From Lingula anatina (Eukaryota; Animalia; Brachiopoda), in contig CM120640.1 in the NCBI GenBank assembly GCA_051362555.1, positions 32,197,967 to 32,261,966 on the forward strand: 64,000 nt of DNA, in the 5' to 3' direction. Both the position numbers and the translations under genes were made by a program. The notes under the pieces were generated by a model, which was not told where the DNA came from, ran no database searches, and was given only the letters and a program-made list of their open reading frames with translations. Of the stretch, positions 4,545 to 54,526 are shown one piece after another. Every line of letters begins with the position of its first letter. Within the stretch, counting starts at the first letter, position 1.

Positions 4545-4599
4545 CCTCTTTTTCTGGGATTAACCGGGCAGTCATCCATGCTCTCAGATTGGTATACAT
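4545..4599 (-). CDS. candidate alternative first coding exon MYTNLRAWMTARLIPEKE(+1 nt)
   Basis: aggATG with an upstream in-frame stop, then 18 codons + G, then donor GAGG|GTAATT (phase 1). The phase matches the other candidates. Confidence 0.45.
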
Positions 4600-5641
4600 C
4601 CTTAAGATCTCCTCTTGTTAGACAATACGGTTCTCCTTCAGTTTGGGCACCAATGGAATCACTCAGCAACTAATGTAATAAGTTGACCACCATACACAAT
4701 ATTCCCTGTTCTTACTGTGTGGCCACAATCTTTTTTAAACCTCAAATGCCAGTTTCACATTTCAGTGTAATAAACTTATTGAACAAACCAGAGCTAGTAA
4801 TCAAACTAGGTTCTAGGATTGAAGTTCACAGCCAATGAGAACCTTGCTATGTTCATCAAAGGCAGCTTGGGGCCTGGAGGGAATAACAATGATCTTCCAA
4901 ATTAGCAAACTGACCTATTGATTATGTCAGCAGTCTTTGGCTATCTTCAAGCCTCTAAAGCACATGGGCCCCCGAACTTCAGCATGGAACGATGCCCTCT
5001 TCGCCAGGAGAGGTACTTGGGGAGAAAAAAGATCAACAGGATAATCTCATCTGCTCCCCAGTATGAAGAGTACCAACAGTGCTTGCTTGCTCTGGCTGAT
5101 CAACTGCTCTAACACACTATTTTCTCATAATATCGTTTAGATCAATTTTCCATGAATGCACTCTCTATCTTTTTTTAAAGATCAAATGAAACCCTTGACC
5201 TCTTCACAATGTTATCTCTATCTCAATCAGCCTCAGCGCAACAAAGTCCACTTAGAACTAATGTTGGTTTCTTGCAATGCTTAATTTTTATTAATCCCAC
5301 ATCTGACCAATTTGGTCTACCAGGCACTGTGATAATTACAAAAGAAGTCATTAATATATTTACCACCTGTACAACATGCAAAAAGATTGCAACCTCTCAA
5401 TTTCACGTGTAACTGAATGCCTGCGTCCTCTTCACAGCCTGAACTACCACTGTTTTAGCAAATCAATACACTTGATAAACGAGCAACATTTCAAACAGAG
5501 CACAATTTCTTTTAAAAGCATGAATGGTCTGTGATGTCTACACATAAACATGCTCTTCTGAGATTAAAATAGAAACCTTTAGATGCACGCTGCAATATCT
5601 TTATTGACCTAATGCATTGCTGATTAAACACTTCTCTTAGA

Positions 5642-5809
5642 GTAAATAATTGACTCTTAGAATTTTAAATTTTAAATGGATGTGTCCAGTATAACCATTT
5701 TGAGATCATCTAAAGAAAGGGAGCTGTAAATAATTGATTCTTAGAATTTTCAATTTAAAATGGATGTGTCCAGTATAACAATTCTGAGATCATCTAAGAA
5801 AAGGGAGTT
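5642..5809. repeat. tandem duplication, 2 x 84 bp
   Basis: gtaaataattga(c/t)tcttagaatttt...gagatcatctaa..aagggag repeated at 5642 and 5726 with few mismatches. Confidence 0.85.
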
Positions 5810-6153
5810 GTGGAGGTCCATGCCAGTCAACGTCCTGCAAGGACAAGATACTTAAAGAGAGATTCAATGTGATCCACAGATGTTTTCTACTCCATAATAT
5901 GTGCAAAATACACAATAAAACAAGAAAATTATATAGGCACTTTGTTAACAATGTAGGAGATTAGGAAACCAACCAATATGACTTTGTTCCAAGATACATA
6001 TTATATGTCTGTGAATGTACTGTGTTTGCTGTTTCTTTTCTTCAAATGTGTTTGGGTGTTCACACAGTCTCAACAAATGCAGTCACAGCAACACAGGTTA
6101 CTTCTACTTTTAACACTACCACAATCACAACTGCTTTATTCTAACACACAGTA

Positions 6154-6155
<2 letters not shown>

Positions 6156-6199
<44 letters not shown>
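6156..6199. repeat. (GT)n microsatellite
   Basis: About 22 perfect GT units. Confidence 0.95.
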
Positions 6200-6201
<2 letters not shown>

Positions 6202-8268
6202 GGGGGGGTGTTGCATGTATGTTTGCGTATGTGTTATACAAGTAAGGGTGAAATACCAATAAGATTAATAACAAAAATATAAGATTTTAGGTTAGGGGTT
6301 TAAATAAAAAAAGGGCAATAAAGAACAATGAGTTCACTGCACTCATGTATGAAATATCCCCTGAAGTGCTTTAGGGACAATGTTTCTGAGCAATACACAA
6401 ATGGCTTCTATAAATCACCACATTTTTCAAATTCAATTAGAGAAAGTGCACTTTTGTAATGGCTATAAATTGATAAATATATTTCCCCATTTTGCTGCAT
6501 GCGGTGATGTAAGATGTAAGTGAACTGTTGAAATGATTAGAGCCACTTATGTAAAAAAAAAAGGCCTTTTTTGTTGAAATGGGAAAATAAAACATATTCA
6601 CAGATTAAAGATCTCTCACAAAATATAATTATGTGCTTCTTTACCAAAGACAGAAAGAATAAAAAAAGAAGCTTAATCAAAAGCATAACTGTTTATGTTT
6701 CACTGTGCTATAAACACAATTGTTTTTGCTCCACCTCAATAAATTTTTGTCTTATCAAGTCTTATATCTAGATTTTAAATTACACCACAAAAACACTACA
6801 AGTAACTTGATAAACTTCTAGAACTGCCCTTTTGGCCAGAAATGTTCTATTTCATTTTTCAAGTTGGGTCGATCATAAGGAGGTAAAGGGTCCACTTTTC
6901 CACAAAAAAGACCCACCCCTTTTAAAACTGCTGGCCACAGACTTGCACAGTGCTAGGAATTAGCTCTGAATAGACAGCTGGGATGGTTGTGATGGGTAGT
7001 TTTTACTTAGAACCCATCCAGAATAGAAGATCCGAGGATCTTCTGATCCACGGATCAAATATGGCAGACCCTACATGAAAGATGAGCCGACTAATATGCT
7101 GATGGTCTCCCCGCCTTTACAATGTTTTGAATGGGCACTTAGTCAACATTCAACAATAAGCTACCATCCAGAAAGTGGTCCATCACTGATTGCGGTGTAA
7201 AGCTTAATTCAAGAATTTTGCTTCCGTTTTCCCCTCATCTTTCTGTACAATAACCTATTCCATCCCCGAGTTATTTTGGTGATTTTTGAGGGAACACATG
7301 CATGCAGCTTCTTCCTTATCTAATTACCAGCTATTCACCAAATAGTATACTATTTGTTGCCATTATTGTCAAAGTGGTGACTTCATGGCCAAATTACATT
7401 TTAGAAAATTGCTATTTGTAATTGGATTGAGTCAAAGTTTAGTTACGATTGTTAAGATGTCTCAGTTATAATGATATTACCTGAATGTGTAATTAATGTA
7501 CGTTATTCACTAGAAAGCACTATAATCAAGTTTTACAGGAAGTTTTCAGCTAAAAAAGGATTGAGTAACTTCATTTAATAGCTTCAGCTCCTAGTTAAAG
7601 TTAAAATTAGTCTGTTTAATTGTGTTTAAAGTCTCTATTAGTACATGCGTCTTGCTTGAGTTCAGTATCTCTGTCTGTAGGAATGGTTTTGATATATTTT
7701 TCTGTACTTCATCTCACGCATGATACATATATAAAGGGGAAAATGGTTTGTAGTGTTATCAGAGAAAGTTTGTCACACTGATAGCTGGCTTGTCCATGTT
7801 GTCTTAGGAGACACCACCCCTCCCAACCAGACAAACAAATATAGAGATAAGTCAGACAGTAGCTGTTGATCTCTGCAAACGTACAGTAACTACGCTGTTG
7901 TGTTACCATAATCAAATTCATGACCATGCTTCTTTTTTCAAAACAGCATTCAAATTGGAATTACACAAGTTTTCACTTTGCTTAAAAGCTTTACACATTA
8001 CCATATTGTCTATAGACCTTTTTCCACTTCCAGTGGCATACTTTAGCCATACAGTGAGTACTGGTACACTTTGAAAGGTCCTACCACCCAATTACTTAAT
8101 GGTAGGGGGTGAGGAGGTGTCTCCCTTTCACAACTTAACTTCTTGCATTTTGCTGTTTATCCAAGTTAATGTATTGGCCATGTCAAGAATACATAGACTC
8201 ATGATGGCTATTTCTTGGTAAATAGAATAAAAGAATACCCTTCATACATATGTATATATTACCACTTT

Positions 8269-8423
8269 CTGGGGTGGATCCAGATATTTTTCAGACAATC
8301 TTCCAAATTATCTTTGTTGATCCACTTCCATTTCTGGCCGTCTTCTTACAGAAAAAATAACATGCCCGCTACTGTAAACTTAAAGATACTAACCCTCTTC
8401 CGGAAGACCCAGAAGACCCTTAA
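8269..8423 (+). mobile_element. diverged, 3'-truncated copy of the 1356-1522 MITE
   Basis: Shares tcttccaaattatctttgttgatcca and tcttccggaagacccagaagac with copy 1. The left TIR is degenerate (ctggggtggat) and the right TIR is missing. Confidence 0.75.
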
Positions 8424-8489
8424 CCGGGTGGTTGGCACCAAAGTATCCCATCTAAAAGACGATACTGACAGCCAGAAAGTATCACCCCC

Positions 8490-8738
8490 CAGTGTTTTAT
8501 TTACAATTTGGAACTAGAGAGTCAGATGACTCGCTGACACTACAGAATACGAGTCATTTTTTATTTTCAGGAGTCAAAATTTTCCCGCCTTTTTTGAATG
8601 GGTAATTTTAACTAGTAATGATGCGTACAACCATATATGTAAATAGATTGTATATGAATTGATGTTGTTTATTTGTAATTGTTGTATTCCAGACTAAAAG
8701 TATATAATTCTATCTACAGGAACTGAAGAATACAAAAA

Positions 8739-8770
<32 letters not shown>

Positions 8771-13259: not shown

Positions 13260-13414
13260 CAGGGGCGGATTTAGGGCGTCTTCTGGGTCTTCCGGAAGAC
13301 GGTCAGATTTTCAAGTTTACATTGACGGGTATCTAATTTTTTATGTCGGAAGACGGATGGATCAACAAAGATAAATTGGAAGACTGTCAGAAAATAACTC
13401 TGGATCCGCCCCTG
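13260..13414 (-). mobile_element. 155-bp MITE, hAT5-type, copy 2
   Basis: Reverse complement of 1356-1522 with a small internal deletion. TIR CAGGGGCGGAT; TSD CCATA (13255-13259 / 13415-13419). Confidence 0.85.
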
Positions 13415-14342: not shown

Positions 14343-14388
14343 CTGAGCCATGCCTGGAAGGAATTTTTATCCAAGTGGGGCACAGCAT
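14343..14388 (-). CDS. candidate alternative first coding exon MLCPTWIKIPSRHGS(+1 nt)
   Basis: Good start context caaaATG with an upstream in-frame stop, 15 codons + G, and strong donor CAG|GTAAGA (phase 1). Confidence 0.45.
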
Positions 14389-18432: not shown

Positions 18433-18486
18433 TCAGTCAGTCTTCATACTTCAGTCAGTTCATATGTTTCAGTCAGTCTTCATACT
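18433..18486. repeat. minisatellite, 3 x 18 bp
   Basis: tcagtcagtcttcatact / tcagtcagttcatatgtt / tcagtcagtcttcatact. Confidence 0.8.
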
Positions 18487-20361: not shown

Positions 20362-20568
20362 GGGTGCATTCCCAGAGATTTAGATTTAGATCGACCTAAC
20401 TCCCTGGGGGTTCATGCTAAATTGCAGTCAGCCGAGTGCGCACGGTAGTCAATTACCCCCTTACAGCTTTTAGTAGGCGGGACAGACGTTTAAACCGGCA
20501 AAGCTGACAGTAATCTAGTGAGACTCCCCACAGGGATAGATCGATCTAAAATCTATGGGAATGGGGTC
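20362..20568 (+). mobile_element. 207-bp PIF/Harbinger (Tourist-like) MITE, copy 1
   Basis: Imperfect TIR (gggtgcattcccagagatttagat...atctaaaatctatgggaatggggtc) and 3-bp TSD TTA. Homologous to 32834-33051. Confidence 0.75.
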
Positions 20569-20689
20569 TTATAGACAGCACTCCCCTGTGTCTCAGTGAT
20601 GTATAATTACCTAAGATGACAACATGTCTGGCAAATGTTTTGGTCTCGATTCAGACTGGGTGAAGACATTTTCCCCTCCCTGGGGAGGA

Positions 20690-22122: not shown

Positions 22123-22156
<34 letters not shown>

Positions 22157-23813: not shown

Positions 23814-23862
23814 CCACATTAAATACAACCCGGTCCACCAATCTAGCAACTTGATTGCCCAT
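23814..23862 (-). CDS. candidate alternative first coding exon MGNQVARLVDRVVFNV(+1 nt), N-myristoylation-type start
   Basis: ccATGG, 16 codons + G, donor TGG|GTAGGT (phase 1). GNQVA resembles GNVA of the 44369 and 38995 exons. Confidence 0.55.
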
Positions 23863-32833: not shown

Positions 32834-33051
32834 GACTGCATTCCCACATATTTAGATCGATCCATCTGGATCGACCTAACTCCCTGGGGGTTCACACTAA
32901 ATTGCTGTCAGCCGAACGTGCACTATAGTTAATTATCCCCTTACAGCTTTTAGTAGGCGGGACAGACATTTAAGCATGCAGTTAAGCTGACACCAATCTA
33001 GTGAGACTCCCCACGGGGATAGATCGATCTAAAATCTGTGGGAATGCAGTT
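32834..33051 (+). mobile_element. 218-bp PIF/Harbinger (Tourist-like) MITE, copy 2
   Basis: TIR actgcattcccacatatttagatcgatc...gatcgatctaaaatctgtgggaatgcagt and 3-bp TSD ATA. Shares ttacagcttttagtaggcgggacagac and other blocks with 20362-20568. Confidence 0.8.
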
Positions 33052-36530: not shown

Positions 36531-38244
36531 ACTAGAGGATCAGAGAGGCGATACCGCCTCTGGATATTGTACCACCAGCTGGAGTAAGCGCATTCGTATG
36601 GAAAACCCCCAAAAAAAGGGACACCACCTCCAGTCTTGTGCTTAACAAGCTCTATAAAATGCAATCAACAATAGTTCTCAAAATATGTAAAAAAGGCAAA
36701 AAAAAAAAACAACTAAAAATGGTCCAATGATGCAGATTTTTTCCTAACATTGATCACTCCTGTGATTTTTTAGACAATAGACCTATTGTTTTTCCTTGAA
36801 ATGTGTTATCATTGTTGCATTTGCAGTATGGGAGCAACACTATAGGCATATCTCTGCTAGTTTTTAAAGATATGAGGGGCAACAAAATATGCAAAGTTCA
36901 GTTCTTGGTGAAAAAGTAGGTCAAAAGTCAATTTCAAGATCACAGTATATGACTTCCTATTCAAGTTCAATAGTAACCATGGGAATTTCTTTGCCAATTT
37001 TGGAGATATAAATGCCAGCTAGAAAACATGCAAGGTGCAGTTCATCATAAAAAGTAGGTCAAAGCTCAATTTCAAGGTCATAGATAGATTGCCAGTATAT
37101 GACTTTTTATTCAAGTTCAACAGTAACTTTGGGTGTATCTCTGCCAGTTTTCGAGATATAAAGGATGGAAAATTTGAAAAGTTCAGTTCTTGGTGAAAAA
37201 GTAGGTCAAAGGTCAATTTCAGTGTCACAGTTAGATTGCAATTATGACTTCCTATTCAAGTTCAATAGTAACTATGGTTGTATCTTTGCCAGTTTTGGAG
37301 ATATAAGGGACTTAAATGTTGCAAAGTTCAGTTCATGGTGAAAAGTAGGCCAAAGGTCAATTTCAAGGTCACAGTTACATTGCCAGTATATGAAGTCCTA
37401 TTCAAGTTCAATAGGAACTATGGGCGTATCTCTGCTAATTTTGGAGTAATTCAAAATTTATTTTCACCACTGAATAATGCATTGTACTTTTTTATATAGC
37501 GCAACACCTAAACCGTATCGAAAACAAAAACATGGACACCACCTCCAGTATTGTGCTTCACAAGTTCTACCAATTGCAAAATTCAAAAGGTCTCTGGCAT
37601 TTATGGTTCCAGAATTTGAGAGGGTTTTCAGTTTCATATGTAATGGCTGCTTCTCCCATGAAAATGCACCAATTGACCCCAAACTCTCAAAGATGAAAGG
37701 AGTCCCTGATTGTAATCCCTTACCATAATATGAGAGCTTAAGTATGTGTAATTTCTGAAATTGGTACAAACAAATATATTTTTGCAGAAAAGTCCCATTT
37801 TTAGAAAATTTTGGCCCGTTTGACCTTGAAATAAAGGTCAAAAGTCAAATCTCAGGGCATATTTGGAATCTCCACATATGACTTTCGGTCAGACTTCTGT
37901 AGTAATTTTTCCCATAATTCCTTCAGTTTGGGAGATATTTAGCATTGAATTTTCCAAAATTTTGACAAGTGTGCGTTTCAACGAGTGTCACGCCCAGGCC
38001 AAAGCACCGACTGAGACAAAAATATCAGGGGGTTCAAGTTGAGATTATATGTGATCTAAATCCAAGAGATGGGGACACAGGTCCTTGCGGTCTAGGAGGA
38101 GAAGCGGTAACGGTGACTTGTATCCCACGACACCCTGCGGAGCCAACGGAGCCAACGGAGCCGGCGGAGCCGGCGGAGCCGTACGAGACGGGTCGGGACT
38201 AAAACCATGAGTACCGCCAGCGTACACGCTGGTGGTACTAATAA
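36531..38244 (-). mobile_element. 1.7-kb non-autonomous Helentron-associated element (HINE / DINE-1-like)
   Basis: Read on the minus strand: TTATTAG start; palindromic subTIR AGTACC(G/A)CCAGCG (38210-38239); a 9-bp repeat tract (38137-38180); an internal tandem array; the partner subTIR GTACCACCAGC (36569-36579); a hairpin AGAGGCG-atac-CGCCTCT (36544-36561); and a CTAGT end in a T-rich site. Confidence 0.85.
36835..37450. repeat. ~140-146-bp tandem array (~4.3 units) inside the HINE
   Basis: Units start near 36893, 37032, 37178 and 37323: aaagttcagttc...aaagtaggtcaaaggtcaatttcaaggtca...tatgacttcctattcaagttcaatagtaactatgg...gagatata. Confidence 0.9.
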
Positions 38245-38886
38245 TCAAATGTATCCTCACACTATAAATGTACAGTGGTTTTTGCCAACTTCAACTCAGT
38301 TGCCTCACAATTAATGACAACAGCAGCTTAATTAGGCTCTGTAACAACTCTGTTCAATACTCATCCAGGGCATCATTTTCTAAGCTCAAGGGTGTCATCT
38401 TTAAAAGTACCTTACTGTATATGTTTTTAAAGCTGCTTACAAGGCAAATGTTCATAAAATGATTTAATCATTCAGAAGTATCTGCATGGAATCTGTTCTG
38501 TCAATACATTTCCTATTTACATTGTATTCAGTAAAATCTGAACATGCGATTTGACCTCAGAGTTCATTTCAGACATCATCAAAATTTAAGATAAGAGCTC
38601 AAATGTCAAATTGATTTTTTTTTTCTTTTCATGCAAACAAACACTATTTTACAAATAAAAGGGGCAAAGTAGATGTAACATAAACGGATTGGATCAATAT
38701 GTTGAAAGATTCAAAATCAAATGATGCACTAGGTGCTCACAACAATTAATTAAACATCATCTACCACCAGATTATTTACATTTCTCTGTCAAAAGGTTAA
38801 TATAGTATGTGCTACCTACTGCAACATATGTTTCTAATGTGCAACAACATCTAATGACGCCTAAGGGATCCCACCTTCTTTTTTAC

Positions 38887-38995
38887 CTTCTTCCTTCTGG
38901 GGGTCAACTGGCACCAGGTTCCTACGGGACATCCGACGCGACATCCTACGCCCCCATCTGTAGGCCATGCTCGCCACATTCCCAATCATCGCCAT
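38887..38995 (-). CDS. alternative first coding exon MAMIGNVASMAYRWGRRMSRRMSRRNLVPVDPQKEE(+1 nt)
   Basis: aagATGG with an upstream in-frame TAG, in a GC/CpG-rich island within AT-rich DNA. 36 codons + G, donor AAG|GTAAAA (phase 1). The first 8 aa match the 44369 exon at 7/8 positions. Confidence 0.7.
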
Positions 38996-40782
38996 CTTTC
39001 CTGATTTGTTGTGTTCCCAAGTTGTTTTCTGGTTTCTATTTAGAGCCTGACCCTACAAGCCCAGTAATGACTGAGGAGATCACTTTTTCCTGTCCGTCCA
39101 ACACTAAATCAGCTAACTTTCCGTCTTACTTTACACTGAATGAACGGAGGCCTAGTAAAAAGTACATTCTATTGACATATTTAGTGAGTTTTTTTGTACA
39201 TCACCCAACCCAACTCTCTGTCATCTCCGATCTGTTTCTTGCCTGATCTGTAGTCTGCTGGTGCACTTGCATCGATGTTCTAAAAAAATCAGCAACACAA
39301 TCCTAGCTGTGAAGAAGTTGACTAGCACAGTCTGGGACCAAAACTCTCAGTACATTTATGCCAGTTGTCTAGAGAGAAAGAATGTAGGTTATGCCATATA
39401 TAATTGAAGTTCTTTCTCCACTTTCCAGGTAACTGCTACATTTAGTGAGATCTTAGGTAGATGATGCTGGTATCATAGTGTTAATGTGAAGTCAGATAGC
39501 CTGGTCCAGCTGATGCCTGTTGAGTTGTGTCCATCAAAAATAGCTATGGCCAGCAATTGGCCCGGTAATACACTTAATTCCACAAAAACACAAACCAACC
39601 AGCAGTTTTCTCTACTCATCCAGATTAACCATTTTCATGCAGAAAGATCAGTCTACCAGCACTGTGCCTGCCTGTACTAGTAGACTGGTATAAAAATATA
39701 TCATCAGTGGTTACCAAGTTGACTTTGATTGGAGATTTCAGTTGGTAGTAACTGATAAGTCAATCCAATTAACCAGAAGAACTTCAGTAAATACCAGGGA
39801 TTTGGTGTCACACTGTACACAGCTGAAATCAGTATATGAAGATTCAGCAAGTCGGGACACTTCACCATTCCTTAATCTAGGAGAGTTCAATTGAAGCCAT
39901 GCATTAAAGCATGTATCCTTAGTATGTGTATTCTTCGATCTTTCACTTAATGACTTCCATTCAAGCACCAGAAAACTCCTCTATCTACAAACCCTATAGC
40001 TGTGGTTTCAGACAACACAAGCAAGCTTCTGAGCAAGCATGAGGCACCCAGCTAATGCATCACCAAGTCCAAAACCTCCAGCAAAGTTTGATCAAAACTC
40101 AATCATTCAGTATACTGCCTTCTGGGCCGACAACAATGATGTTTAGAAATTTCACCACAATGACCACACAAATATTGACCCTTAATATAAACTCTGTAAA
40201 TAATCACTCTGGGCAGTGATAGTGAATTATATAACTCTTCATTCAGATACACGCTGGTACACTAACAAACATAAATCCTGGGCTGAAAGAACTTTGAACA
40301 CCTTTGCATTGCAAAACTATAGAAAAGCATAGTGCACTGCTCCTGCAAGCAGATCCCACATGGGTCCACGCACTAATACCTTTATTCCAGGCACTATGAA
40401 TAATGCACATGTCCAAGAGTTAAAGAGGTAAACAAGGGTCACATTTAAACCATTGTAACTTTGCCTGATCAGTCACCCAGGAGGAAAGGTCACATTTCAG
40501 CCACAATTAAGAGTTTCAGGATGAGATACATAAGGTGAACTACAATCAACTACATATACACTGATCAATAATAATGGGTTCGTGTAGTGAGAATTGTAAT
40601 ACAGATTATTAAGTGTGACACTAACAGTTGTCTTCTGCAAAACTGCATCCCCACAGGTCTTGGGGCATGACTTTAGGATGAACTTGTAACAGTTAGTTTA
40701 ATAAAGGAGAAATAAATAGCAGCCTATGAATTTCCTTGCACATATACCACTGATCTAATACTTGTACTTCACTTATCAAAAA

Positions 40783-40850
40783 AATAATAATAATAAATAA
40801 ATAAATAAAAAGATTAATGATTAGCTTTAATATTATTATTATTATTATTA
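40783..40850. repeat. (TAA)n/(TAAA)n/(TAT)n simple repeats
   Basis: Directly visible. Confidence 0.8.
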
Positions 40851-43800
40851 CTATAAAGCATCAATCTAAAAATCATCATTTCTTCAGTTTCTTGCCAAGC
40901 TATCTCAGGTATTATTTGAGCCAAATTTCAAAAGTCAAAACACTATTCATTAGACAAATTAAGTTTTATGAAGCAAATCTGACATTTACTTAAAACAATG
41001 GTATATTGATCCTTTTGTGTCTTTTATAATACCTTTGTGAGGGAAAATAAAAGAAGCATTGGAGATCCCAGAAAAAATCTTGAGTCAAAGTCAAAAATAT
41101 TTACAAAGTGAAATCTTTGATTTTAATTCTAAACAAACCACTGGCTACTGTTCTAGGAATTTTTGTTTTGTGAAGAAAATACCTTTTACACTTAATCAAT
41201 ACACTTAAACAAAAAAAATGCCTTAAACAAAACATTTTTTCTGTCAATCTTTCTTTAGCATTAGGCTAAAATACTATATTCTAGTGTAGGCCCAATTAGG
41301 AATCTACACTGCCTAAACTAATGACTGAAAAAGTACATTTTTCATGAGAGCCGCATCAACTTTACAATAAGACCGCCCAGCTGTGCTCAAGGAGACAACC
41401 TCAGCATCAATAATTCAAAAATAACTAATCACCAAAGTTAGCATTTGATGCACTTGATCAATTCTTTAAGTTTACCTACCAAAATTGTTCTTAAAAGAAT
41501 GTAAATCAATGTAACAAGAAGGGTTTGCTTCAAGTATACACTACGTGCTGAGACTGGTTGTCCATTCACAATATCATGAGATATTAATGAACTATGTTAG
41601 TTTTATTATAGATGAATGCCATGAATAGATTAGAATGAAGAGATACATTTTCTTTACATATACCTGCTTCCGTATGTCATATTGTGGCATTTAGAAACTA
41701 ATAACAGTTGATCAACTAAAACAGTTGATTTGCATCTGTGTTCTATGTAACAAAATATTGCATAAAACAGATTAAATAAATAAATAAAATTTTAAAGGTT
41801 CCAGATCCCATTACCAACTAAAATGATCCTGATTCAGGCCTTCACTATTTACCAAATTTTTGAATAACTAAAATAGTGACATGTTTTCAATGTCAAGTAG
41901 AAGAAAAACTACAAACTAGAACCAAGCAGTTGATCTACACAGAATCTGAACTCGAAGGCTGAAAAACAGGCAGTGCTGCTCCCTAGTGGAGAATTAAAGA
42001 ATCAGAAAAAAAATGTGGATCATTTCTTGTTTCTCATCAAAATCATAGACAACAGGTCTTTTTTTTTTGTTGTATGTGTGGTAAACTACACTATGTAAAG
42101 AATTTCAATATATTCATCCATAATCATTAAAATAACACTCATATCATATTGGAGTAAAGCTGAAGTACATTGAAAAGCTTCAATAAGTGATTTTCTCAAT
42201 CACATCCGACAAACTTCCTTTACTGATGACTTTTAAACTGCATAAAGACAAACACCAATAGAATTTGCATCTGTACAAATAGATAAAAAAACTGTGAATG
42301 GCATTCAACTGCTTATTGTGCAAAACAAATGCTGCTACACAGTTATATTGAATATTCATATATTCCATCAAGTTTTGCTCTCAAGATCAACACTGACATT
42401 GATAACACTGACATTGATTGGTTCGCCTCTTACATACATAAGTTGAAGCATACATCAGTCTCAATGGTCTAAAAGAACAGACGCAACAGTCGAATATGTA
42501 ATATTTGAAATATCATTTGTGGAGCAATTTTTGCTCTTGTGAAAAGAGCGAAATGTAGGCAATTACTATATCCTTAAAATATCAGTAAATACATTTCCTT
42601 GGAACCATTAACAATGTTATTGATTAATTTGTATAATGTGTTTATCACAAAAAATCAAAAGATGTTTAGCACTGAAGGAAGGAATGTACTTAAGTGGAAA
42701 GAGGAGAAGGGAACAATTATAGGCTACTTATGAATCACAACAAATATGTATTGCATGTGTTAAAAGTAACATTAACAGAAATTATCTTCCACTGATCTCC
42801 TGATCTCTGACCTAAGAAACTGATATTAAAAAGGTGCAATGCCCCAGTGAAGGTAAGAAATCAAGATCAAATATAGATCTTGATCATTTCCAACCACCAG
42901 TGAGGAGTGTCTGCTTGATTGGAAAACATATAATTGAACCATTTATCTGGCTCCCCAAATCTTCCACATTATATAATTGCATATTAACGTAAGTAATGGC
43001 AAAGGCCAAGTGACTAAGTTGGTAATGGCAGCTGGGTTAATAAGTTTGTATAGGTGGACTTGATTTAGAAATAGTACATCTACTTGAAACTCTATGATCA
43101 AGACTTTTTACTTTATGGAGTATGACTGGTGAAACATATTCTGATTGTATGTAATCAGTTTTTCTGATAAAATACTTTCAAAAAATAGTAAAATTTAAAG
43201 CAAACATTGCATTTTCTTCACTTTAACTGTGTGCTCATCATCTACTGACAGCCCGTAATGACGTAGAACAGCTCATTAAATAATGAAGTGAATGCCACAA
43301 GAAAGAAACAATGTTATCAATTTTGATATTTACAGGAAATTAAGTTTTTGTGGGTTTTTTTTTCTCTTCTTTTGACATAAAAAATATAAGGGTGCCGTAT
43401 CTAATTGTATTGTAGAAATTCACCCAGCAAAATAAGACTGTTCAATTCGGTGAAGAATCCTTGTCTCAAATTATATTATATACTATGTTTCTTGTTGCAC
43501 ATTGGAACAAAGGCAGGTTGTTGGTGATTTCCCATGGTATTCTCCAATCATGTTTCTCTGATCTTTAGGTATCAGCTCACAGATGGACCAAACTAGACTA
43601 TCATAGTTAAGACATTTCAAAAGTGTTGAATACAGCTATGCCAATTGATCTGTATGTATTCAATATAGCCAAATTGATATGTAAGATAAAAACATATGAC
43701 ATTTAATAATAAAAATTTAGGCCTCCAGGTACAGTTGAAATATCTCTATATTATACATGTAACAAGCAATCACCCCTGAGTGATTTAATAGACAACCAAA

Positions 43801-43998
43801 AAGCATGCATACATGATATTTAGAACCATGCTCATATTGAAAGGCATAGAGAACTGGGAGCTTCATATTCCATAAGGTTAAACTGTTCACCTGTACGACT
43901 GACACAACCAAAACAAGCAGCTGCTCATCTACAAAAATAGAATCATCTTTTTTTTAGGTAAAACAAAACAAAAATATAGCAATATAACAATAACTCAC

Positions 43999-44026
43999 CC
44001 GAATAAACAGAAGATTCTGAATCCAT
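43999..44026 (-). CDS. candidate alternative first coding exon MDSESSVYS(+1 nt)
   Basis: ATGG with an upstream in-frame stop, 9 codons + G, and consensus donor CGG|GTGAGT (phase 1). Lies about 260 bp from the MSMIGNVA exon. Confidence 0.55.
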
Positions 44027-44284
44027 GAGTACAGAACTTATCAATTGTTACAAAGCAGGCATGTACCTGTTCTGCAAGGTGAAGTAACCGAGTCTCTCAC
44101 ACAATGGGGATAAAAAATATGCCCCACGAGTTTGCCAAAAAAAGAACAGGTGGGAAAGGTGTTCTTCAAGGAGAAAAGAACTGCTTCGAGGGGAAGTAAT
44201 GATTTTCATTTAAGTTCAAAGAAAGTTAGTTGGCGCTGCAGCATGCCTTATCACATCAGCACCACTGGAAAACTTTAAACTCAC

Positions 44285-44369
44285 CTTTTTTCATAATTTT
44301 CCTGGACACATTACTAGTTAATTGTGCCACCTTTGTAGTTAGAACCGCAACATTCCCGATCATTGACAT
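44285..44369 (-). CDS. alternative first coding exon MSMIGNVAVLTTKVAQLTSNVSRKIMKK(+1 nt)
   Basis: acgATG, 28 codons + G, and near-perfect donor AAG|GTGAGT (phase 1). The N-terminus is homologous to the 38995 exon, with synonymous codon differences. Confidence 0.72.
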
Positions 44370-45574
44370 CGTGAGTAATTTTTAGTCAGGCTCCGCCTCT
44401 TTAACTTGAGTCCAAAAATTAATATCAGTGAACAAGAAAGTCTCATTCACCTCTGTCCAGGGGCTGACCCTAGCTTAAGTAGATAGCTGATGGCAAGTAA
44501 AAATCAATTAGTGCAAATCACTCAAAACTCCCTGCATCCACTTTCAATTTCTCTGCATCTCTAAATTCCTGACTGACCTCTGGTTGGTTGAAACTTCCAC
44601 AATCAGTGGCATTAAAAAAAAAAGAGTAACACAAAGATCAGTATTCAACCAAAACTGTAGCAGCCAGATACTATTCAGAGATACACATGTAAGTTCCTGT
44701 ACTCTTTAGTGATCTCTCTGAATTTCCACATCATTTCAGTCAGGCCGTGACATTAACAGGTGCCAAAGGAACAGTTTTTTGTACAGATAACCTTGTCAAT
44801 CTACATTACGTAAGTATGCATAACAATGTCCAAACTAGCACATAAACTAATATGTTCTCTGGCTTTCTGTGTCCAGGTTAACACATGTGCTCAGTTTTTT
44901 TTGAAACTCTAGTTCGTAAAACGTGTCCTTAATGAATATTCCTGGAAATACATCCCCATTGCTCTGCTGGTTAAGCTAAAGGATTTCGACATAAGATACA
45001 TGAACACAATTACTAAGATTAATCAGAAAATCCATGCCTATAAATCTAGGAATTACAGCAAATTTATGGGTTTGTTATTCTCCGTTGGCCATGCAATGAT
45101 TAGAAGCGAAAACAATAAAATACTTGTTCCAAGGTCAACATGATTTATCAGATCTTCATCTCTCAAAAAAAATTTTTGAAAATTTCTCAGAGATCAGACT
45201 TCCCCACCAAGGTGAGTAAACAGCCAGGGTTCCTAACTATGCCAAAAAATAACTAGATGATGAGAGGCAATTTCTATATCATAACTGAGCCTTCCTTCTA
45301 AAATGTATTGCCACATGGCATACCAACAAGAACATGGTCAGTATTACTACCTATAGTGTACTCTTCACCCCAAGAAATATCACACGGTCTTTATTTTTTC
45401 TCAATGCAATATAACATAACTATCAAGAGTTCTGAGAAAAGACGTTTAGGATAAACTCACATGATTCACAACATTGTCACGACTCCAATTAATTCTGCAA
45501 CAAGGAAAAGGTATAACCGATGCAAAAAGCTGTCGAACAAAAAAAAATGTAATAAGAAAAATTATTTCCAATAC

Positions 45575-45638
45575 CTTTTTTCTTGGACCTTTTTGAAAGT
45601 CTTGATGTTATGCTGGATACCACGTTCACCACTGACAT
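45575..45638 (-). CDS. candidate alternative first coding exon MSVVNVVSSITSRLSKRSKKK(+1 nt)
   Basis: gaaATG with an upstream in-frame TGA, 21 codons + G, donor AAG|GTATTG (phase 1). Same hydrophobic-then-polybasic pattern and KK|G end as the 44369 exon. Confidence 0.55.
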
Positions 45639-48600
45639 TTCTGCTGCTGTAGGTCTTCAGACACTGTTCTGCATAAGTTTGTACAACTGATCCGAGCTAA
45701 ATGCTGCTTTTACATTCCTCTGTCCATCCACTGCCCTTTTTTTAACTCTCAGTATTGCTTCTTCTGGTGAATAAATTTGCCGCAATATGCTTCTGATAAC
45801 AAAAGTTATTCTTGGGGTGCCTTTCTACTCTTAATCAACAACTTGCTTCTAAAAATTGGTCAGCTTTGGTTACTGCCCAATCCCCGCTAAAAAGGCTCCT
45901 GGCTCCCAATCAATAAACAACAGATCCCACTTTGAACCATTAGATGATTCAATATACCAGTTTGTTCGACATGAAGATAAGATCAACTAGTAACTTGGCC
46001 CAACAGTGAGCAAGAAGAAGGGCAGTGTGAGGAGCTGGAGTCCACTTGCCTTGGCTCAATTTGGGGGGAATTCCTGTTGTGTCACTGTCCTGAGACTAAA
46101 GTATTGTACATTGTACATCTGGGTGATTTAAACTAATCTGGCACCTCTGGCCACTGCTAGTGAGTCTGCAGATTTCCCATGGGGCACCCTGCCACTTAAA
46201 TAATGTATTTTTATTTGTCTTCGATGGACATAATTGCCAAAGGTGGGGGGACTAATTAATCAGTAATTAAATTGTACATGGTGTGCTATCATCAGCCTTA
46301 AGCCTATGTACTGGAATACCTCTTTTTATATTTTCATCACACAAGTATTTTCCTTGGGCAAATAAAGTCAATCAGTACCATTGTCTCAGTTATTGAAAAC
46401 GAGTGTGGATACTTCACTAGTTCAGATGGTCACCATCACAAAGGCAGCTTCTGCGCCAGTGAACACCATTGCTTAAAATTCTGCAAACAAGAATCAACTG
46501 GACTTAATAATGCAAGAAAACATGCATGCTTTGTTTGAAAGATTCAAAAGTTTATTGGCCCTTTGTCAAATAATCCTCACTTTTTCTTGATAACAAAAAA
46601 GTTGAAAAGGCTAAAATGGTTTAAATTACAATAGAGAGCCTGTTTTCCCATCTGAGATCCTGTGGAACCGACTATCTAGGAAATGGATTTTTGTGTTTCT
46701 TTGAAAATTAATCCCTAGAATGCAAATAAGCTACATCCTCGCTCAATCAGTACCATTGCTATCACATTCAGTGAAAGGCAAGTAGTTGTAACTGACTTAT
46801 CCCACAGCTGGTGCTTCTAACAATAGGATGAATGCACCAAACATATGAAAATACAGGCAAGCATGTAAGTGAAATACAAGTGCAATTATCCTATAGTTTA
46901 AAGTGTCAGCCTTGGGATCTATTACAACCAACAACTAGCTGATGTTACGCCCTTTATTTCATCAATAAAAATACATACACCTTAATTTGGGACATTAGAC
47001 AGCCTGGCAAATTACTAAATACTTCAAGGCATGATTGTTGTAGCACTAAAGATTATCACATAACTTTGCCACAAATTACGTCAAGCATGCAACCAGGTAT
47101 TGTTTTATATGCATATTGTAATTGAAAAAAAGCCTTCCAACTAAAATAAAATCAGATATAAATTTACTTAAGTATTCAGCTTTTCTCAAATGAGCTTCAA
47201 TGTGTATTCTATACACTCCTCATCCTATTCATTGCTTGCACAAACATTCTAAACTATTTCTAAAAAGCAATATTATTTAGGGACCAAAATATATATATAC
47301 TTGCAACTTGGGCAATGTTTATCATTTTCATTAGAAAAAGGTGGTTGCACTTCTTGTAAGATCAGTCCTTCAGGACTCTTTTCATCAGCAAATATCAGCA
47401 TGGCACTCTTTGGGGATGACAAGTAATTTCTTCAGCACCTGATATCTCAATTAACTTTCCAACAGCAATGCCAGCACCAATTTTAGAAATGCTCTTTCAT
47501 GATACACAATTAAACTTGGAATTTGTGAGGAAAAAAAATGGAAGTGAAAATATTTGCTAATTTTACCTCCACAGACACATGCAGTAAGGGTTTCCTAAAC
47601 ATGATTATTACAAAGTTAGCAAATAAAGTGCAAGGCAGAATCAGTTATCATTTCCTGTGTGTACGTTGGTACGGTTCTGAACCAGTATCACTGTTCTTTG
47701 TTCGCATAACACGCTCCTGTAAGATGGAAAGGGGCACCTATGTATCATGACTATGAAAGATGGATAAATTCACACAGATTGGTGATATTCTGGAATAAAG
47801 CCATATATCAAAGTCAAAGGAGAAGGGAAAAAACTGAATAATTATATTTTATCTATATTTTTGGGGCATGAAACATACAGTACAGACATGCACTTTATGC
47901 CATATTATTTCAATTATTTAACATTAATCCTCAGTCACAACTAAATATAATATAAACTCAATTGTGACAAAACAACTTCTCCTTCCTTTTTGGATTAAGA
48001 CATATCTGTGATGAAATAATAATTCATTATAAAAAATTTATTACCCTCATTTTGCTTTCCATTGCCCTCAAGATAGCTATAAAATCTATAATGTCCTGAC
48101 AGAGTCTGATGGTCTGATCAAACATAATTAGTGTTACAGATGGGCAGCTGTGTCAAGTAAATTGCTTAGATGGCACTTAAAGCAACGTCTGTACAACTTT
48201 AAGTGATGTAAACAAATCACTTATTTGATTGTGCTACCAGCCAAAATTATGTTTTCTGCAATGTTCAGCTACATAAACTGCCTGCTTCTGTCTCATATTA
48301 TAATTATGTTTTAAAAAGTGCTTGGCAGACTAAAAGAGCATGCTACAAACATGATCACCAGAAATGGATAAAATACAATTTCCTGTGTATATGCCATGCA
48401 TGAAATTTTTTCATTATCCAAATGAATACCTACCTGATAAGGATATAATAAATTAGCCGTACCTACAGTTACTTGGTCATGACTATTTGATGACCAGATA
48501 AGCGACAAATAATAAGTTAACCCACACATGAAACTCAGTAAAAAATGAATGACTGGAAAACAACATTGACACATCTTTCCTTTTCCAAATCCACTGACCT

Positions 48601-51600
48601 TTATAAAACAACGTGCCAATTTTTTTCTAAATCACATTTCAGGACTGACTCATATTTGTGCATGTACGTGTGATTATTCTAATTTCAGTGTTTCAACATG
48701 GTAACATTTTTGACTAATGGTTGCATTTCATGTATGGTTTCACTTCAAGACTCAACAACAGTGCGTCTATACAGCTATGCCTACAGGCACTGGTGTTATT
48801 GGATTGCACTAGAGATTGCAGTATTTGTCCAACTGGAAATGCAGGATCTCTGCCCAGTTATTAATAACTTGCACTTGAACAAAAACTACAGCATAAGTAC
48901 TTCAGTTTACATATTCCTCCTAGTTCAAAATCTCTAAATTTACGTCCACTAATTAGATCATATAGCACCTGATTAAAAATATCAAACAAATATTGTAATC
49001 GAAATAAATTGTTCAAAAAATATCCAAAAATCCACTTGTAAATGCATTTTATAAACAAGATATTCAGCAAATTACCAGAGTAACTCAAAAAACAGTTAAC
49101 ATTAGCAGCACATACAATGGAAACACAATGGAAAGACAATCAAAACAACCAGCTACCACTGACTTCACAACCAAATAAATTCCACGTGTGCAGCAGAACA
49201 CAATGCTGAGAACGCAGTGCACACCCCAGCACAATCTGTAGGTTGCTCCCAGCAGCCAGGCACTCGTGCACAACAACAGCAATACACAAGACTTAAACTT
49301 TCAAGTTTTATCATAGTTTGATGTCATCTTTCTGAAAGTCATAAAACATAAAACATGCCAAAACTTGTACCATACAACTGCTTGATGTATCAATGCAAAA
49401 AAAGTTACAAACGTATCCATCAGACCTAATCAATTTAAATTGTGGAAAAATTCTCTCTGTGTTATAGTGTTATCTCAAATTTCCATCACACATTCAGACA
49501 GAACATTGGATAGAGCATTGATTTATAGCAGAAACTTTGAAGAGTGTATATTCCAGTTGTGAAGTCTGGACTCTGCTTATGTATTTTATAGCAAAAGATG
49601 CTATCCAAGAAAACTCTTGATCAGTCACTATTAAAGAACATAAAAATGAAAATCACTGTTTATTGCAGTCTTTGGTTTAGAAAATAAAGTTGAAATTGCG
49701 AAATGCATTTTATATCCATTTCTCTTTGTTTCTTTTTGTTTCTTACTGATTGATTGAGCACATATTAATTAATGTCCTTATTTTATTTGTTCATGTACCA
49801 TTATTATATTCATAGAAGGAAATGCCATGGTTTGTTGACATTTAAGATATAAATATATATACATGTATATACATATGTATGTATAGAACTGAGACAGAGT
49901 AAAGGATTAAGCCATGTCCTTTGACTATAACTTTGCAAAAATTCAATTTTCTGTTTCTGTAATTTAGGCAGGCCACAGGTGTCCTACCACAACAAAATCA
50001 AATCATTTCATTTCCTGTTAGCATTTATATTCCTACTGTAACCAAGTTATCAATCTATTCAATAAAATTTGGTATTTCAAAAAGAATTCAGTATAGCCAA
50101 ATGGATAGGTAAAGAACCATCTAGTTTACATGATTCTGATAAGTTTAAAACGACATTTAAATTAAAACAACACCAACTCATTACACCATTACAAGTCCAT
50201 TTTGTCCTAATAAATAACCACAAACTCAAAAATAAATCAAATCAGTGGCCTGACCTTGAGAAGGAACTTGGGGTAAATTACATCATTATAACACATCTTA
50301 AGTAAAGAGACTCAGCAAAAACATCTGTGCCCAGTTCCCACAGAGCTCACGAGTACAGTTTAAAGAAGTAAAAAATCTCCAGATCAATCCTCCGAACATA
50401 TTTACTCACACCTTGTACCCTCCAAACACTACATATCATTCTTTTAATGGCACATCAGAAGTACGCCATTTGTACTTAACCTTTCATCTTTCTTTTGCTT
50501 GTATTTCACAATTACAGGAAATCCCTACATGAAAGCAGAGTATGGCTGTTAACACTTACTCCTCACAGAAACATTATGCCAGGGGCTCACTTTTCAATAG
50601 CTTGCAGGTAAACAATGAGGACCAGACTCTTTTTCCATCAAATTCCATATCTCTTGTAACTTTTTTTTTTTTTAGAAAAAAAATGTACATATTTTCCTGA
50701 AAATAATACTGACTACTTGCAACAATTTAAATTCATTAAGGATTGGAACTTCAGACTAGTCCACTGATCTTAAAATAATGTTTTTTTTTTTTTTTTTTTT
50801 TTTTACCTCTTCTCAGGTTTTAGATGTGTATTCATTCCGGTATGTATTCATTCAGTATGGTACTTACAATATAACAATTGCCATGCTGCAGAGATATGAT
50901 CTATAACCATATAACTTTGAAATAATCCATATAATTTAGCCAAATAAATGATGATGAGCACAGAACAGAACAGAATAAATCTTAAAAGCAATTCCACAAT
51001 AATCATTATCCCTAAACCAGACCACTGTAATGTATGTTCTGTTTCCTGTCCATGGTGCTCAAAGTAATTAGTTTATTGAGGTATTATTTTTTTTCTAGGG
51101 CAACACAACATCAGTAATTACAATTTGGAGGGTGAAACCCTGCTCTTCTGACATTGATACTGACTGTGCTGAAACACTGCATTCCATTCAATAATATTCC
51201 ACATGAAATAGATTTTTTTATACTTTATGTAGAAAGACATCCAATTGCGTTTTGAATTAACTCTAGTTGCTTCCATAGACCCAAAGAGAAAAATGTTTAT
51301 TAATTATATTAATTAGCATTGTATCCATATTACCTAATGTCTTCAACAAGGTAACCCACTGTAATTAAGCTTCAGAAACCAAAGATTTGAACAGGATGTC
51401 TGTTTTTCTTAATTCTCTTATTCAGTTCAAATATTCCTCCCCTAATATTAATTCTGAGATCTTTTAAATTCTACACAAAAGTTAACAAAATCAAACTTCA
51501 AAGAAAATATTGATTTTTTGTACTGTCATATATTGCTTTGAAGAATGACAATAAATCTATTCCTATAGTACAGGCAAAAATATAAATCAGAAGACGTAAC

Positions 51601-52219
51601 TTCTAGTAATCATCACATGGCAACCTCCAAACCACTAAATGATTCAGAGACTTCTCTATTCAAAAAAAAAACAGCAACCCATTAGTATGTTCTAATCACC
51701 ATGCACTTATTAACCTCCAATACCATTAGAGTCTGATTCCAGGCAAATTATATAAGCTGTGTCATAATAATCTTTCAAATATCAATCATATACAAGTTCA
51801 TCATGGATCACACTATGGTCAAGAAGAGCAGAAATGCTGTCTTACTTATATGTATGCGCTAATAACACGATGTTCAATTTAAAAGCTGACAGTCTGATGA
51901 GATAAAATCCTCATAAGTGTGCATGAACTATCAACAAACAGGTTTAATCAAGATATTCATATCTCACAGATTCCTCTAGAGGCAATAAGACTATCTGACT
52001 TAGTGCACTTGCTAATTTGAGCTCAAGCCCAAATAATGGTTCACTAGTCTGAGGTTGTCTCTGGTCAATCTTGCTGACAAACATTTTGAAGCCTGTTTTC
52101 ACGTGTCTGGGATGGGGATCAAGGTAGGTCCCACAGGAAGATAATTTCATTTGTTAATAGATCATAGCACAGGTTAAAGTATACCTTTCAAGTGAGAAGT
52201 CTTGCTGTGAAACTCAACC

Positions 52220-52280
52220 CCACACACACCCTATACCCACACACACGCACGCACGCACACACACACACGCACGCACACAC
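52220..52280. repeat. (CA)/(CACG) compound microsatellite
   Basis: Directly visible. A (TAA)n tract also lies at 52422-52447. Confidence 0.85.
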
Positions 52281-54369
52281 GGATGTTCGGTACTGTAGCC
52301 AATGCAATGGAGTTGCTTGGTGATGTTTTATTATGTAACTGTGGCCTAATGGTATATATATATGCGACAGGCATGTAACTGTACATAGTGGCATGCAACA
52401 GGTATAACCATGGTATAGTGGTAATAATAATAATAATAATAATAATATTTATTCAGCTAATGATATAAGATACAGGCTTTGGTTGGTTCTAATACAGCAA
52501 AATCAAAATGCTACAAACTGACACTGATAGCTTCCAACCCCACCTCTTTTTACTTATATATTTCACACTGAGTTAATATGCTGGTGCATGAACATGTTTT
52601 TTTTCCCCTTTGTGGCCAATGTCTCATTTACTTAAAGCGAGTCTTGCTGATTTAGTTATACAGCAGTTTTTGTCCCCGAAACTTGGTCCATTTTCTAATG
52701 AATGCTATGGCATAACTTGCATGAATCACTTGAGACAATAAATATCAAGTGGTAGATTTTCGAGAATGACACTGAAAAAAAAATGCATTGTCTCAATTTT
52801 AGCCATTTCTGTGCTACAAGTGGTACTCATTCCACAAATGCTGATCGGCTGCAAGGGTAGGGACAACTGTTCCCCACATTCTCTTTATTTTGGGTAGGAG
52901 GGGTTCATAAGGACGACTATTGTTTGTGGTATTTTTCTTTTTTATTTGCCATTTGCCTTAAAGGGCAATGTCTCACTGAAAAATATTTCCCTTAGATCTA
53001 ATATAGATAATCTTTTGTATTTTTCAAAATCTACCAAAATACGCAGATGAAAAGATAACACACTACTGTCTTCTTCACAAATAGCCTCACCTAGTAGTGG
53101 TGCGTAAATATTCACCTTGACATTTTCTTATGAAGCTATAAATTGTCAGGGCACTGAGGACTGCAATGGTTAAATGTTATCCTAATGTTGTTTATGGACC
53201 TATGTCAACTTCAAACAATTTATAGGAAGTGCTGATCCTGGAACAATCTCGTAAATACATTCTCTGAATCTTTCCGTCATATCCAGAGCATCTCAGCAGT
53301 GTTAACTCACTAGTTCTGGATAAACAAAAATCATTACTTAGTTATCATCATTTTGCTTTTTCAATCAAAGTTCTTCCACTTTGCATCATTCTCACACTTG
53401 CAGGCCTATTGCAAATGATTGTCTTTGAGCATCAAACAGCATTACATGGCATGAGAGATCAATTTCCATTAGTGGGTCTTGTTCAAGGATAATGATTAGA
53501 CAAATTGACATTCTGCATGATTAGAGATGCAGCAGAATAAGACTTCAACATCTAGATTACAATGTTTGTGTTAGTCTGATCACAATAGCACTAATGGTGC
53601 ATGTTAAAATATGAAAACTTTTTATAAGGCAGGCAGATAGGTAACTAGGCCAAGATAGGTGAGAGCCAATTTGCTTGAATAAATACTAAAAAAGACTGCT
53701 GAAACCCATGAAAGAATCTCTTAGTTCAGCTTAAACATATCAAGTTCTGCAAGATGCCTTAAAATTAATAACTATTAAATTCAAAAAGGCATATAATATA
53801 TTTTTTATTTATTTATTATGCTTTGTTTTCAAATGTCTTGTATCTATACTAAGTCTTGCATTTCTTTTTGAGTGTGCAAAGGTCATCAAATTGGCATCTT
53901 ATCATTTGTACAAAATGTTACAAAAACTACTGGAATGGCTACACTTAAATTCAAAGTACTTAAAGTTGGCATAATACACCCTGAAAAAATAGCATCGCAT
54001 TGCCTGATCCCTCCCACTACAAATTGCTAACAAAGCTCTTTGCACTTTATACAAGCAACTCGAACTGCCAATAAAGATAACCCAATGTCTGATAAATCAA
54101 GTTCTATCAAAAGTCATGAATCTTATTCTGTAAAAGTAATTGTAAATCACACTGACTGCATGGGGAAATCAACTTAAATTGCATATGAATATTTCATTTA
54201 GTTAACAGTTTACACCTAGGAGCAAAATATATCTTCACTTTCAGGCCTTTACAACACAACACACACACACACACACACACATAGACATGCTGATCACTGT
54301 AGAATCACGTGCATCAACCAAAAACGTATGTCAAAAATTAAGGCAATGCTGAAGTATCACAATACCTAC

Positions 54370-54526
54370 CTTGTTTACAGAAGCAGGAAACTACGCAATC
54401 TATGATACAGTGTTGGCAAAACTTGATGAGCATCCCTCTAAAAGTCCACGGCTCCTGGAAGTGGGCATACTGAGTCTCCAGTGGGAGAGCTTCTTCTGAG
54501 GTGTGGTTTGCACCATGGGTATACAT
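54370..54526 (-). CDS. candidate first (or cassette) coding exon MYTHGANHTSEEALPLETQYAHFQEPWTFRGMLIKFCQHCIIDCVVSCFCKQ(+1 nt), Cys-rich
   Basis: aatATG, 52 codons + G, strong donor AAG|GTAGGT (phase 1), and raised GC. A phase-1 acceptor (ttctttgaatag|) near 54552 would also keep this frame open. Confidence 0.55.

What the first reader, a model, noticed from the sequence alone, without database searches (positions are those of the whole stretch)
4545..54526. Array of same-phase alternative first exons: a swap-in library of N-terminal targeting peptides for one minus-strand gene
Seen: eight short ATG-initiated minus-strand exons (54526, 45638, 44369, 44026, 38995, 23862, 14388, 4599). Each ends codon+G|GT (phase 1), and most have an upstream in-frame stop. 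Seven are too short for the ORF track. No run of internal coding exons is visible, so the shared exons should lie left of the window. Inference: many promoters splice to one constant acceptor, as in variable-first-exon loci (UGT1A, clustered protocadherins, plectin, KCNIP). Each would give the same protein core a different myristoyl, palmitoyl, polybasic or acidic leader. Caveat: ATG+donor pairs also arise by chance, so the weaker members need transcript evidence.
Basis: partly seen in the sequence, partly recalled or inferred. Interest (0 to 1): 0.85.

Follow-up and report, generated by a model that had tools for sequence, protein, structure and literature searches.

The report
Brachiopod KChIP gene's alternative first exons
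These short exons are alternative starts of one brachiopod gene for a calcium-sensing helper of potassium channels (KChIP); five are already in database gene models, two more are likely real, and each is predicted to give the same protein a different front end that changes where it sits in the cell, a layout already known from vertebrates.

Summary
All eight ATG…G|GT phase-1 segments are real, though the pattern alone is no more frequent than chance. They are the 5' end of a KChIP (KCNIP) gene; database labels say Lingula anatina. Five of eight (54526, 44026, 38995, 14388, 4599) already begin NCBI-labelled isoforms joined to one EF-hand core outside the window. Four RNA reads show the 43999 donor spliced to that core. 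Of the three unannotated exons, 23862 is strongly supported by mollusc and nemertean homologues; 44369 is moderately supported (paralogue of 38995, reads, two synonymous differences); 45638 rests on paralogy only and had no reads in 8 of 8 runs. Multi-promoter KCNIP genes with myristoylated or palmitoylated leaders are known in vertebrates (PMC3973911), and molluscs show the same layout. The new point is age: the cysteine-rich 54526 leader has matches in molluscs, a sea cucumber, crustaceans and, more weakly, the palmitoylated Cys45/46 segment of vertebrate KChIP3. Targeting functions are untested.

The parts
54370..54526 (-). Coding part of alternative first exon; 52-aa leader with five cysteines, predicted palmitoylation type; family found across bilaterians
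   Evidence: Starts 7 of 16 database isoforms; top conservation score, 0 of 1681 controls reach it; aligns into calsenilin leader; low read depth in 2 of 4 runs in the bin 54200-54863
45575..45638 (-). Candidate first exon, 21-aa basic leader; likely duplicate of 38995/44369; may be rarely used or decayed
   Evidence: Not in the 16 isoforms; peptide like 38995 (p=0.003) and 44369 (p=0.016) against shuffles; weak donor; depth 0 in its bin in 8 of 8 runs
44285..44369 (-). Probable unannotated first exon, 28-aa basic leader, paralogue of 38995
   Evidence: Peptide like 38995, p=0.001; strongest donor listed, 7.9 bits; 8 reads from 2 runs cover 44349; 2 of 2 read differences synonymous; no junction read
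43999..44026 (-). Alternative first exon, 9-aa acidic/serine leader, predicted soluble form
   Evidence: Isoform P0011; 4 reads in run X5 leave the window at 43999 and continue into the core exon
38875..38995 (-). Alternative first exon with two phase-1 donors (38887 and 38875); 36- or 40-aa arginine-rich leader with two RRxS sites
   Evidence: Isoforms P0015 and P0012; minus-strand reads over exon and upstream in 3 of 4 runs; 3 of 3 read differences synonymous; motif scan
23814..23862 (-). Unannotated but conserved first exon, 16-aa leader beginning Met-Gly, predicted myristoylation
14343..14388 (-). Alternative first exon, 15-aa leader with one cysteine
4545..4599 (-). Alternative first exon, 18-aa leader
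39090..45725 (-). Three copies of the hexamer GGACAG starting at 45725, 44458 and 39095, i.e. 87, 89 and 100 nt upstream of the three paralogous ATGs
   Evidence: only 9 of 1515 minus-strand ATGs have it 80-105 nt upstream (window chosen after seeing the motif)

Best explanation
The segments are alternative first coding exons of one minus-strand KChIP gene, spliced in phase 1 onto a shared EF-hand core that lies outside the window (shown for 44026 by reads, annotated for four more, likely for 23862 and 44369, uncertain for 45638), and each is likely driven by its own promoter and predicted to set where the protein is anchored. The last G of each exon completes the first Asp codon of the core, so any leader fits. 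By analogy with vertebrate KChIPs (inferred, not tested): the 54526 leader would be S-palmitoylated, 23862 N-myristoylated, 38995/44369/45638 would bind acidic membranes through basic residues (38995 with two RRxS sites that a kinase could switch), and the short 44026 leader would leave the protein soluble. Cell types would thereby tune trafficking and gating of Kv4/Shal channels by promoter choice. The set is a mix of old exons (54526, 23862) and a local triplication (38995, 44369, 45638).
For: Database isoforms: 12 of 16 start with a window-encoded leader and share one core. Junction reads at 43999 (4 reads, run X5). Stranded runs X5 and X6 show only minus-strand RNA in 38300-46200. 5 of 5 listed read differences inside coding parts are synonymous third-position changes, where about 0.22-0.23 of random changes would be. 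Core is a KChIP: best solved-structure matches are KChIP4, calsenilin, KChIP1 and KChIP2 (E 3e-80 to 1e-69), other neuronal calcium sensors E 5e-53 or weaker. Related species carry many leaders on the same core start. Vertebrate precedent: PMC3973911, section 5 part 1 read.
Against: ATG-donor pairs are not enriched over controls. 45638 had no reads in 8 of 8 runs and a weak donor. Six of 8 leaders have no significant homologue among 294 foreign leaders (9 to 92 of 100 shuffles score as high). The database isoforms are automatic predictions. No transcription start was mapped, and no lipid modification, localisation or channel effect was tested.
Confidence: 0.88

Rival explanations
1. Only the five annotated exons plus 23862 are functional; 45638, and perhaps 44369, are decayed duplicates or chance pairs. 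Reads over 44369 come from the 5' UTR of the 44026 transcript (its ATG is 259 nt past the 44285 donor) or from nascent RNA of upstream promoters.
For: No junction for either; 45638 depth 0 in 8 of 8 runs; run X6 has thin minus-strand cover in 22 of 30 bins, i.e. intronic background; no significant foreign homologue.
Against: Both frames are intact and in phase; 44369 has the strongest listed donor and two synonymous differences; both resemble annotated 38995 and share its upstream hexamer; coverage was very low (1 to 47 reads laid per run).
Confidence: 0.3
2. The exons matter as promoters, and most leader peptides are tolerated by-products with no targeting role.
For: Six of 8 leaders are not detectably conserved; 2 of 16 isoforms start at a Met inside the core with no leader; many relatives have very short unrelated leaders.
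Against: Two leaders are conserved across phyla at the protein level; read differences in 38995 and 44369 are all synonymous; vertebrate leaders do control localisation (PMC3973911).
Confidence: 0.25
3. The exons are mutually exclusive second exons behind one or a few non-coding first exons, so the choice is made by splicing, not by promoters.
For: Protein records do not show transcript starts; no start site was mapped (table 6 empty).
Against: Reads run on for some 300 nt upstream of the 38995 ATG with no joint or loose end listed there; all eight have upstream in-frame stops; vertebrate KCNIP genes use alternative promoters.
Confidence: 0.08

Closest known systems
Vertebrate KCNIP1-4 (KChIP1-4) genes with alternative promoters and 17 N-terminal variants (PMC3973911; section 5 part 1 and passages read)
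   Same: Variable 5' exons on a constant EF-hand core; leader classes described as cytoplasmic, myristoylated and palmitoylated have predicted counterparts here; the leader-core boundary falls at the same place in the protein.
   Different: Here one gene carries at least seven annotated coding first exons (five in the window, two outside) and up to ten with the candidates, whereas mammals spread 17 variants over four genes (six listed for KChIP4). No leader in the window looks transmembrane like KChIP4a/2x/3x (highest 19-residue hydropathy 1.62, in the cysteine leader). Three basic leaders form a local triplication.
KChIP3/calsenilin leader with palmitoylated Cys45 and Cys46 (PDB 2JUL; PMC10377897, passages read)
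   Same: A profile of the 54526-type isoforms aligns its Cys-Cys-Leu-Ile-x-Trp consensus on residues 45-50 of calsenilin, two residues further from the core.
   Different: The brachiopod leader itself has His for the first Cys and Cys for the Trp; a leader-only profile does not find calsenilin in the PDB at E<=10; palmitoylation is untested here.
Mollusc, nemertean and annelid KChIP genes in automatic database annotation
   Same: Many leaders on one core: e.g. 7 leader strings each for Argopecten and Liolophura, 9 for Octopus, 6 for Lineus among the sequences fetched (includes cassette variants, and lists were capped at 15 members per cluster). Families of 54526 and 23862 are shared.
   Different: 23862 starts Met-Gly here and in Lineus, while mollusc members mostly have a longer start, often with a cysteine; 14388, 4599 and 44026 have no significant match.
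Variable-first-exon arrays such as UGT1A and clustered protocadherins (recalled, not checked by a call)
   Same: Alternative first exons joined to constant exons.
   Different: Those arrays are tandem copies of one large domain-coding exon; here the exons are short and mostly unrelated to each other (only three are paralogous).

Membership tests
KChIP (KCNIP) subfamily of neuronal calcium sensors | EF-hand core closer to KChIPs than to other neuronal calcium sensors | tested here: met
   Pfam EF-hand hits; the 12 best of 25 PDB matches are KChIP1-4/calsenilin, E<=1e-69, next hippocalcin E 5e-53
KChIP (KCNIP) subfamily of neuronal calcium sensors | Variable N-termini from alternative 5' exons joined to a constant core | tested here: met
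   8 distinct leaders on one core among 16 isoforms; junction reads at 43999
KChIP (KCNIP) subfamily of neuronal calcium sensors | Binds and modulates Kv4/Shal channels | not testable with these tools
   No Kv4 sequence of this organism was held (no genome); needs co-expression
Alternative-promoter (multiple first exon) gene | All variable exons end in the same phase and use one acceptor | tested here: met
   All phase 1; five annotated to the same core start; one shown by reads; not shown for 45638, 44369, 23862
Alternative-promoter (multiple first exon) gene | Each exon has its own transcription start | tested here: inconclusive
   Read depth too low to map starts (table 6 empty); no shared upstream k-mer enrichment
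S-palmitoylated KChIP leader (KChIP3a type) | Cysteine pair in a hydrophobic segment shortly before the core | tested here: inconclusive
   Family consensus aligns on calsenilin Cys45/46, but this species keeps only the second of the pair among five cysteines and the leader-only PDB search was blank
N-myristoylated KChIP leader (KChIP1a type) | Gly at position 2 in a myristoylation pattern, and the modification itself | tested here: inconclusive
   23862 is the only one of 8 matching the pattern (pattern recalled from PROSITE, not from a call); modification untested
Transmembrane KChIP (KISD type) | Hydrophobic membrane-spanning leader | tested here: not met
   Seven leaders have highest hydropathy <=0.90; the cysteine leader reaches 1.62 but holds charged residues
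Tandem variable-exon cluster (protocadherin/UGT1A type) | Variable exons are paralogous copies of one domain | tested here: not met
   Only 38995, 44369 and 45638 are clearly alike; DNA-level likeness not significant

The most novel reading that the evidence does not exclude
The KChIP leader repertoire is older than the protostome-deuterostome split: the cysteine-rich 54526 exon is the homologue of the palmitoylated vertebrate KChIP3 segment, and a single invertebrate KCNIP gene with about ten promoters, grown further by recent exon triplication, does the job that four paralogues share in mammals. [quoted passage not shown]
Probability: 0.65. Interest if true: 0.5.

Novelty: new member of a known kind. 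Interest (0 to 1): 0.36.

Why it matters
It fixes the identity of the locus, adds one well-supported (23862) and one or two probable (44369, 45638) leaders missing from the 16 database isoforms, and suggests that tuning of A-type potassium currents by swapping KChIP leaders is an ancient bilaterian device, not a vertebrate one. Two invertebrate leader families conserved across phyla are ready candidates for localisation and Kv4 assays in molluscan neurons. It does not reveal a new mechanism.

Tried and rejected
No genome was held, so the constant exons and the two outside leaders could not be placed. Counting ATG-donor pairs by strand and phase gave no enrichment. The run search listed no indexed RNA holder; nine raw-read runs of the same species label were offered, eight were laid. 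The first lay (37600-57500) was dominated by expressed repeats and showed no exon junction among the rows displayed. A leader-only profile found nothing in the PDB. DNA-level alignment of upstream regions was not significant (best p=0.051) and shared upstream k-mers were not above random sets, so a shared 12-mer upstream of 23862 and 14388 is not claimed. Scans for further conserved phase-1 exons in the window found none above the control range. A motif shared by 38995/44369/45638 and four annelid or unnamed leaders was seen by eye but these leaders did not beat shuffles (9, 17, 21 of 100), so cross-phylum homology is not claimed. No complex prediction was run. The primary KCNIP gene-structure paper (Pruunsild and Timmusk 2005) could not be read; it is cited only through the review.

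Full report
Observation. The window is AT-rich eukaryotic DNA (about 35% GC). All eight segments run open from ATG to a G|GT donor on the minus strand with lengths of 1 mod 3, and each has an in-frame stop in the 60 nt before the ATG. The longest stop-free frames in the window are under 150 codons and show no coding gene. On its own the pattern is not special: with a generic donor matrix (recalled) at 3 bits there are 17 minus-strand phase-1 pairs against 14 and 20 in plus-strand phases 1 and 2.

Identity. The 52-residue peptide of the 54526 exon matched two clusters at 100% identity, labelled Kv channel-interacting protein of Lingula anatina. The clusters hold 16 sequences, isoforms X1 to X16. 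Seven start with the 54526 leader, two with 38995 (donors 38887 and 38875), one each with 44026, 14388 and 4599; two have leaders not found in the window and two start at a Met inside the core. Every leader is followed by the same core start, D-N-D-L-D-D-L-E-M-Q, whose first codon takes the exon's last G. No core exon is in the window, and since the gene runs on the minus strand the core lies to the left; no genome was held to confirm the distance. The core has EF-hands, and its 12 best of 25 PDB matches are vertebrate KChIPs, well ahead of other neuronal calcium sensors.

Transcripts. Nine raw-read RNA runs of the same species label were listed, none indexed as holding the stretch; eight were laid, 6 to 30% of each run read. 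The first lay (37600-57500) was dominated by expressed repeats, with thin depth in the bins of 38995, 44026 and 54526 in 2, 1 and 2 of 4 runs and truncated tables. The second (38300-46200) laid 14, 47, 12 and 1 reads. In run X5 four reads leave the window exactly at 43999, and their loose part, read by hand on the minus strand in phase with the exon, gives the core start. This shows one junction directly. The stranded runs show minus-strand RNA only. Reads cover the 38995 exon and some 300 nt upstream, and the 44369 exon (6 reads in X6, 2 in X5), but X6 also has intronic background in 22 of 30 bins. All five listed read-versus-window differences inside coding parts (three in 38995, two in 44369) are synonymous third-position changes, against a random share of 0.22-0.23. 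The bin of 45638 had depth 0 in all eight runs.

Relatives. A search with the first 75 residues of isoform P0015 gave 87 proteins, and ten clusters were opened, up to 15 members each. Molluscs and a nemertean carry many different leaders on the same core start. Scoring 403 minus-strand phase-1 candidates of the window against 181 foreign leaders, anchored at the donor, put 54526 and 23862 on top (49 and 39); of 1681 control candidates none reached 49 and one reached 39, and that one is the 54526 exon read to a neighbouring GT. Against 294 of 315 leaders (those up to 130 residues) and 100 composition shuffles each, 54526 and 23862 were reached by 0 shuffles, the other six by 9 to 92. So 23862, absent from the 16 isoforms, is very likely a real exon. 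38995, 44369 and 45638 resemble each other (p=0.001, 0.003 and 0.016 among 28 pairs, uncorrected) and each has GGACAG 87-100 nt upstream of the ATG, a position shared by 9 of 1515 minus-strand ATGs (post hoc). I read them as a local triplication; whether 45638 is still used is open. No further conserved exon stood out.

Age of the cysteine leader. The alignment of the 54526 isoform with calsenilin extends into the leader. A profile of ten such isoforms sets its Cys-Cys-Leu-Ile-x-Trp consensus on calsenilin residues 45-50, and Cys45/Cys46 are the reported palmitoylation sites of KChIP3 (PMC10377897, passages). Wider searches added deuterostome and arthropod KChIPs. A leader matrix built from this species and eight molluscs, run on 315 leaders, ranked after the mollusc members a sea cucumber (37.8 bits), three crustaceans (24.5-26.6), and eight teleost, KChIP3-like or unnamed leaders (19.0-22.8), each reached by 0 or 1 of 200 shuffles; the next leader scored 17.8. 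The echinoderm link is strong, the vertebrate link modest: the gap to background is small, the leader-only profile missed calsenilin in the PDB, and cysteine-hydrophobic motifs can converge.

Mechanism. Shown: same-phase exons, one core, one junction, conservation of two leaders. Inferred: separate promoters, and leader functions. By motif, 23862 fits a myristoylation pattern (recalled), 54526 has five cysteines, 38995, 44369 and 45638 carry net charge +5 to +6 with two RRxS sites in 38995, 44026 is short and acidic, and none is a clear transmembrane segment. In mammals KChIP leaders made from alternative promoters set membrane anchoring, trafficking and gating of Kv4 channels (PMC3973911, section 5 part 1 and passages). 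The same use is the most likely one here.

Novelty. The architecture is known for KCNIP genes and five of the eight exons are in automatic annotation. Paper searches for KChIP with Lingula (0 papers) and with bilaterian, palmitoylation and conserved exon (0 papers with 3 of 4 terms), and listings for mollusc, cnidarian, crustacean and nematode terms (listings and abstract starts only) showed no study of invertebrate KChIP first exons; subscription journals, the primary 2005 gene-structure paper and supplements were not seen, so this does not prove absence. The scan's own notes held nothing on this place or on KChIP. Verdict: real feature, correctly guessed, new member of a known kind; interest 0.36.

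Noticed in passing
proteins P0001-P0016 (exons outside the window): The core itself is alternatively spliced in the database models: a 16-residue insert and a 9-residue insert in the N-terminal lobe, and three different C-terminal ends, two of which replace the conserved last helix.
   Followed up: no
proteins P0013 and P0016 (not in window): Two further leaders lie outside the window; by eye one resembles short Met-Gly leaders of molluscs and Lineus, the other a basic Met-Gly-Gln leader family seen in molluscs, Lineus and a hemichordate.
   Followed up: partly
window 37600-38263, about 46800-46895, 56192-57500: Repeat-like stretches with high RNA depth and many loose ends and differences; probably dispersed repeats expressed from other loci.
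   Followed up: no
window 36884-37446: Tandem array of about 145-nt units, 3.4 copies.
   Followed up: no
window 1356-1522, 8288-8387, 13260-13414; 20384-20563 and 32864-33046: Two small dispersed repeat families, one with an inverted copy at 97% identity.
   Followed up: no
window 54366/54370 and 23810/23814: Both conserved exons end in G|GTAG|GTA, a second GT four bases on; use of the second would shift the frame.
   Followed up: no
   Followed up: partly
window about 24037 and 14663 (minus strand): A 12-nt word shared upstream of the 23862 and 14388 ATGs; not above random expectation.
   Followed up: yes
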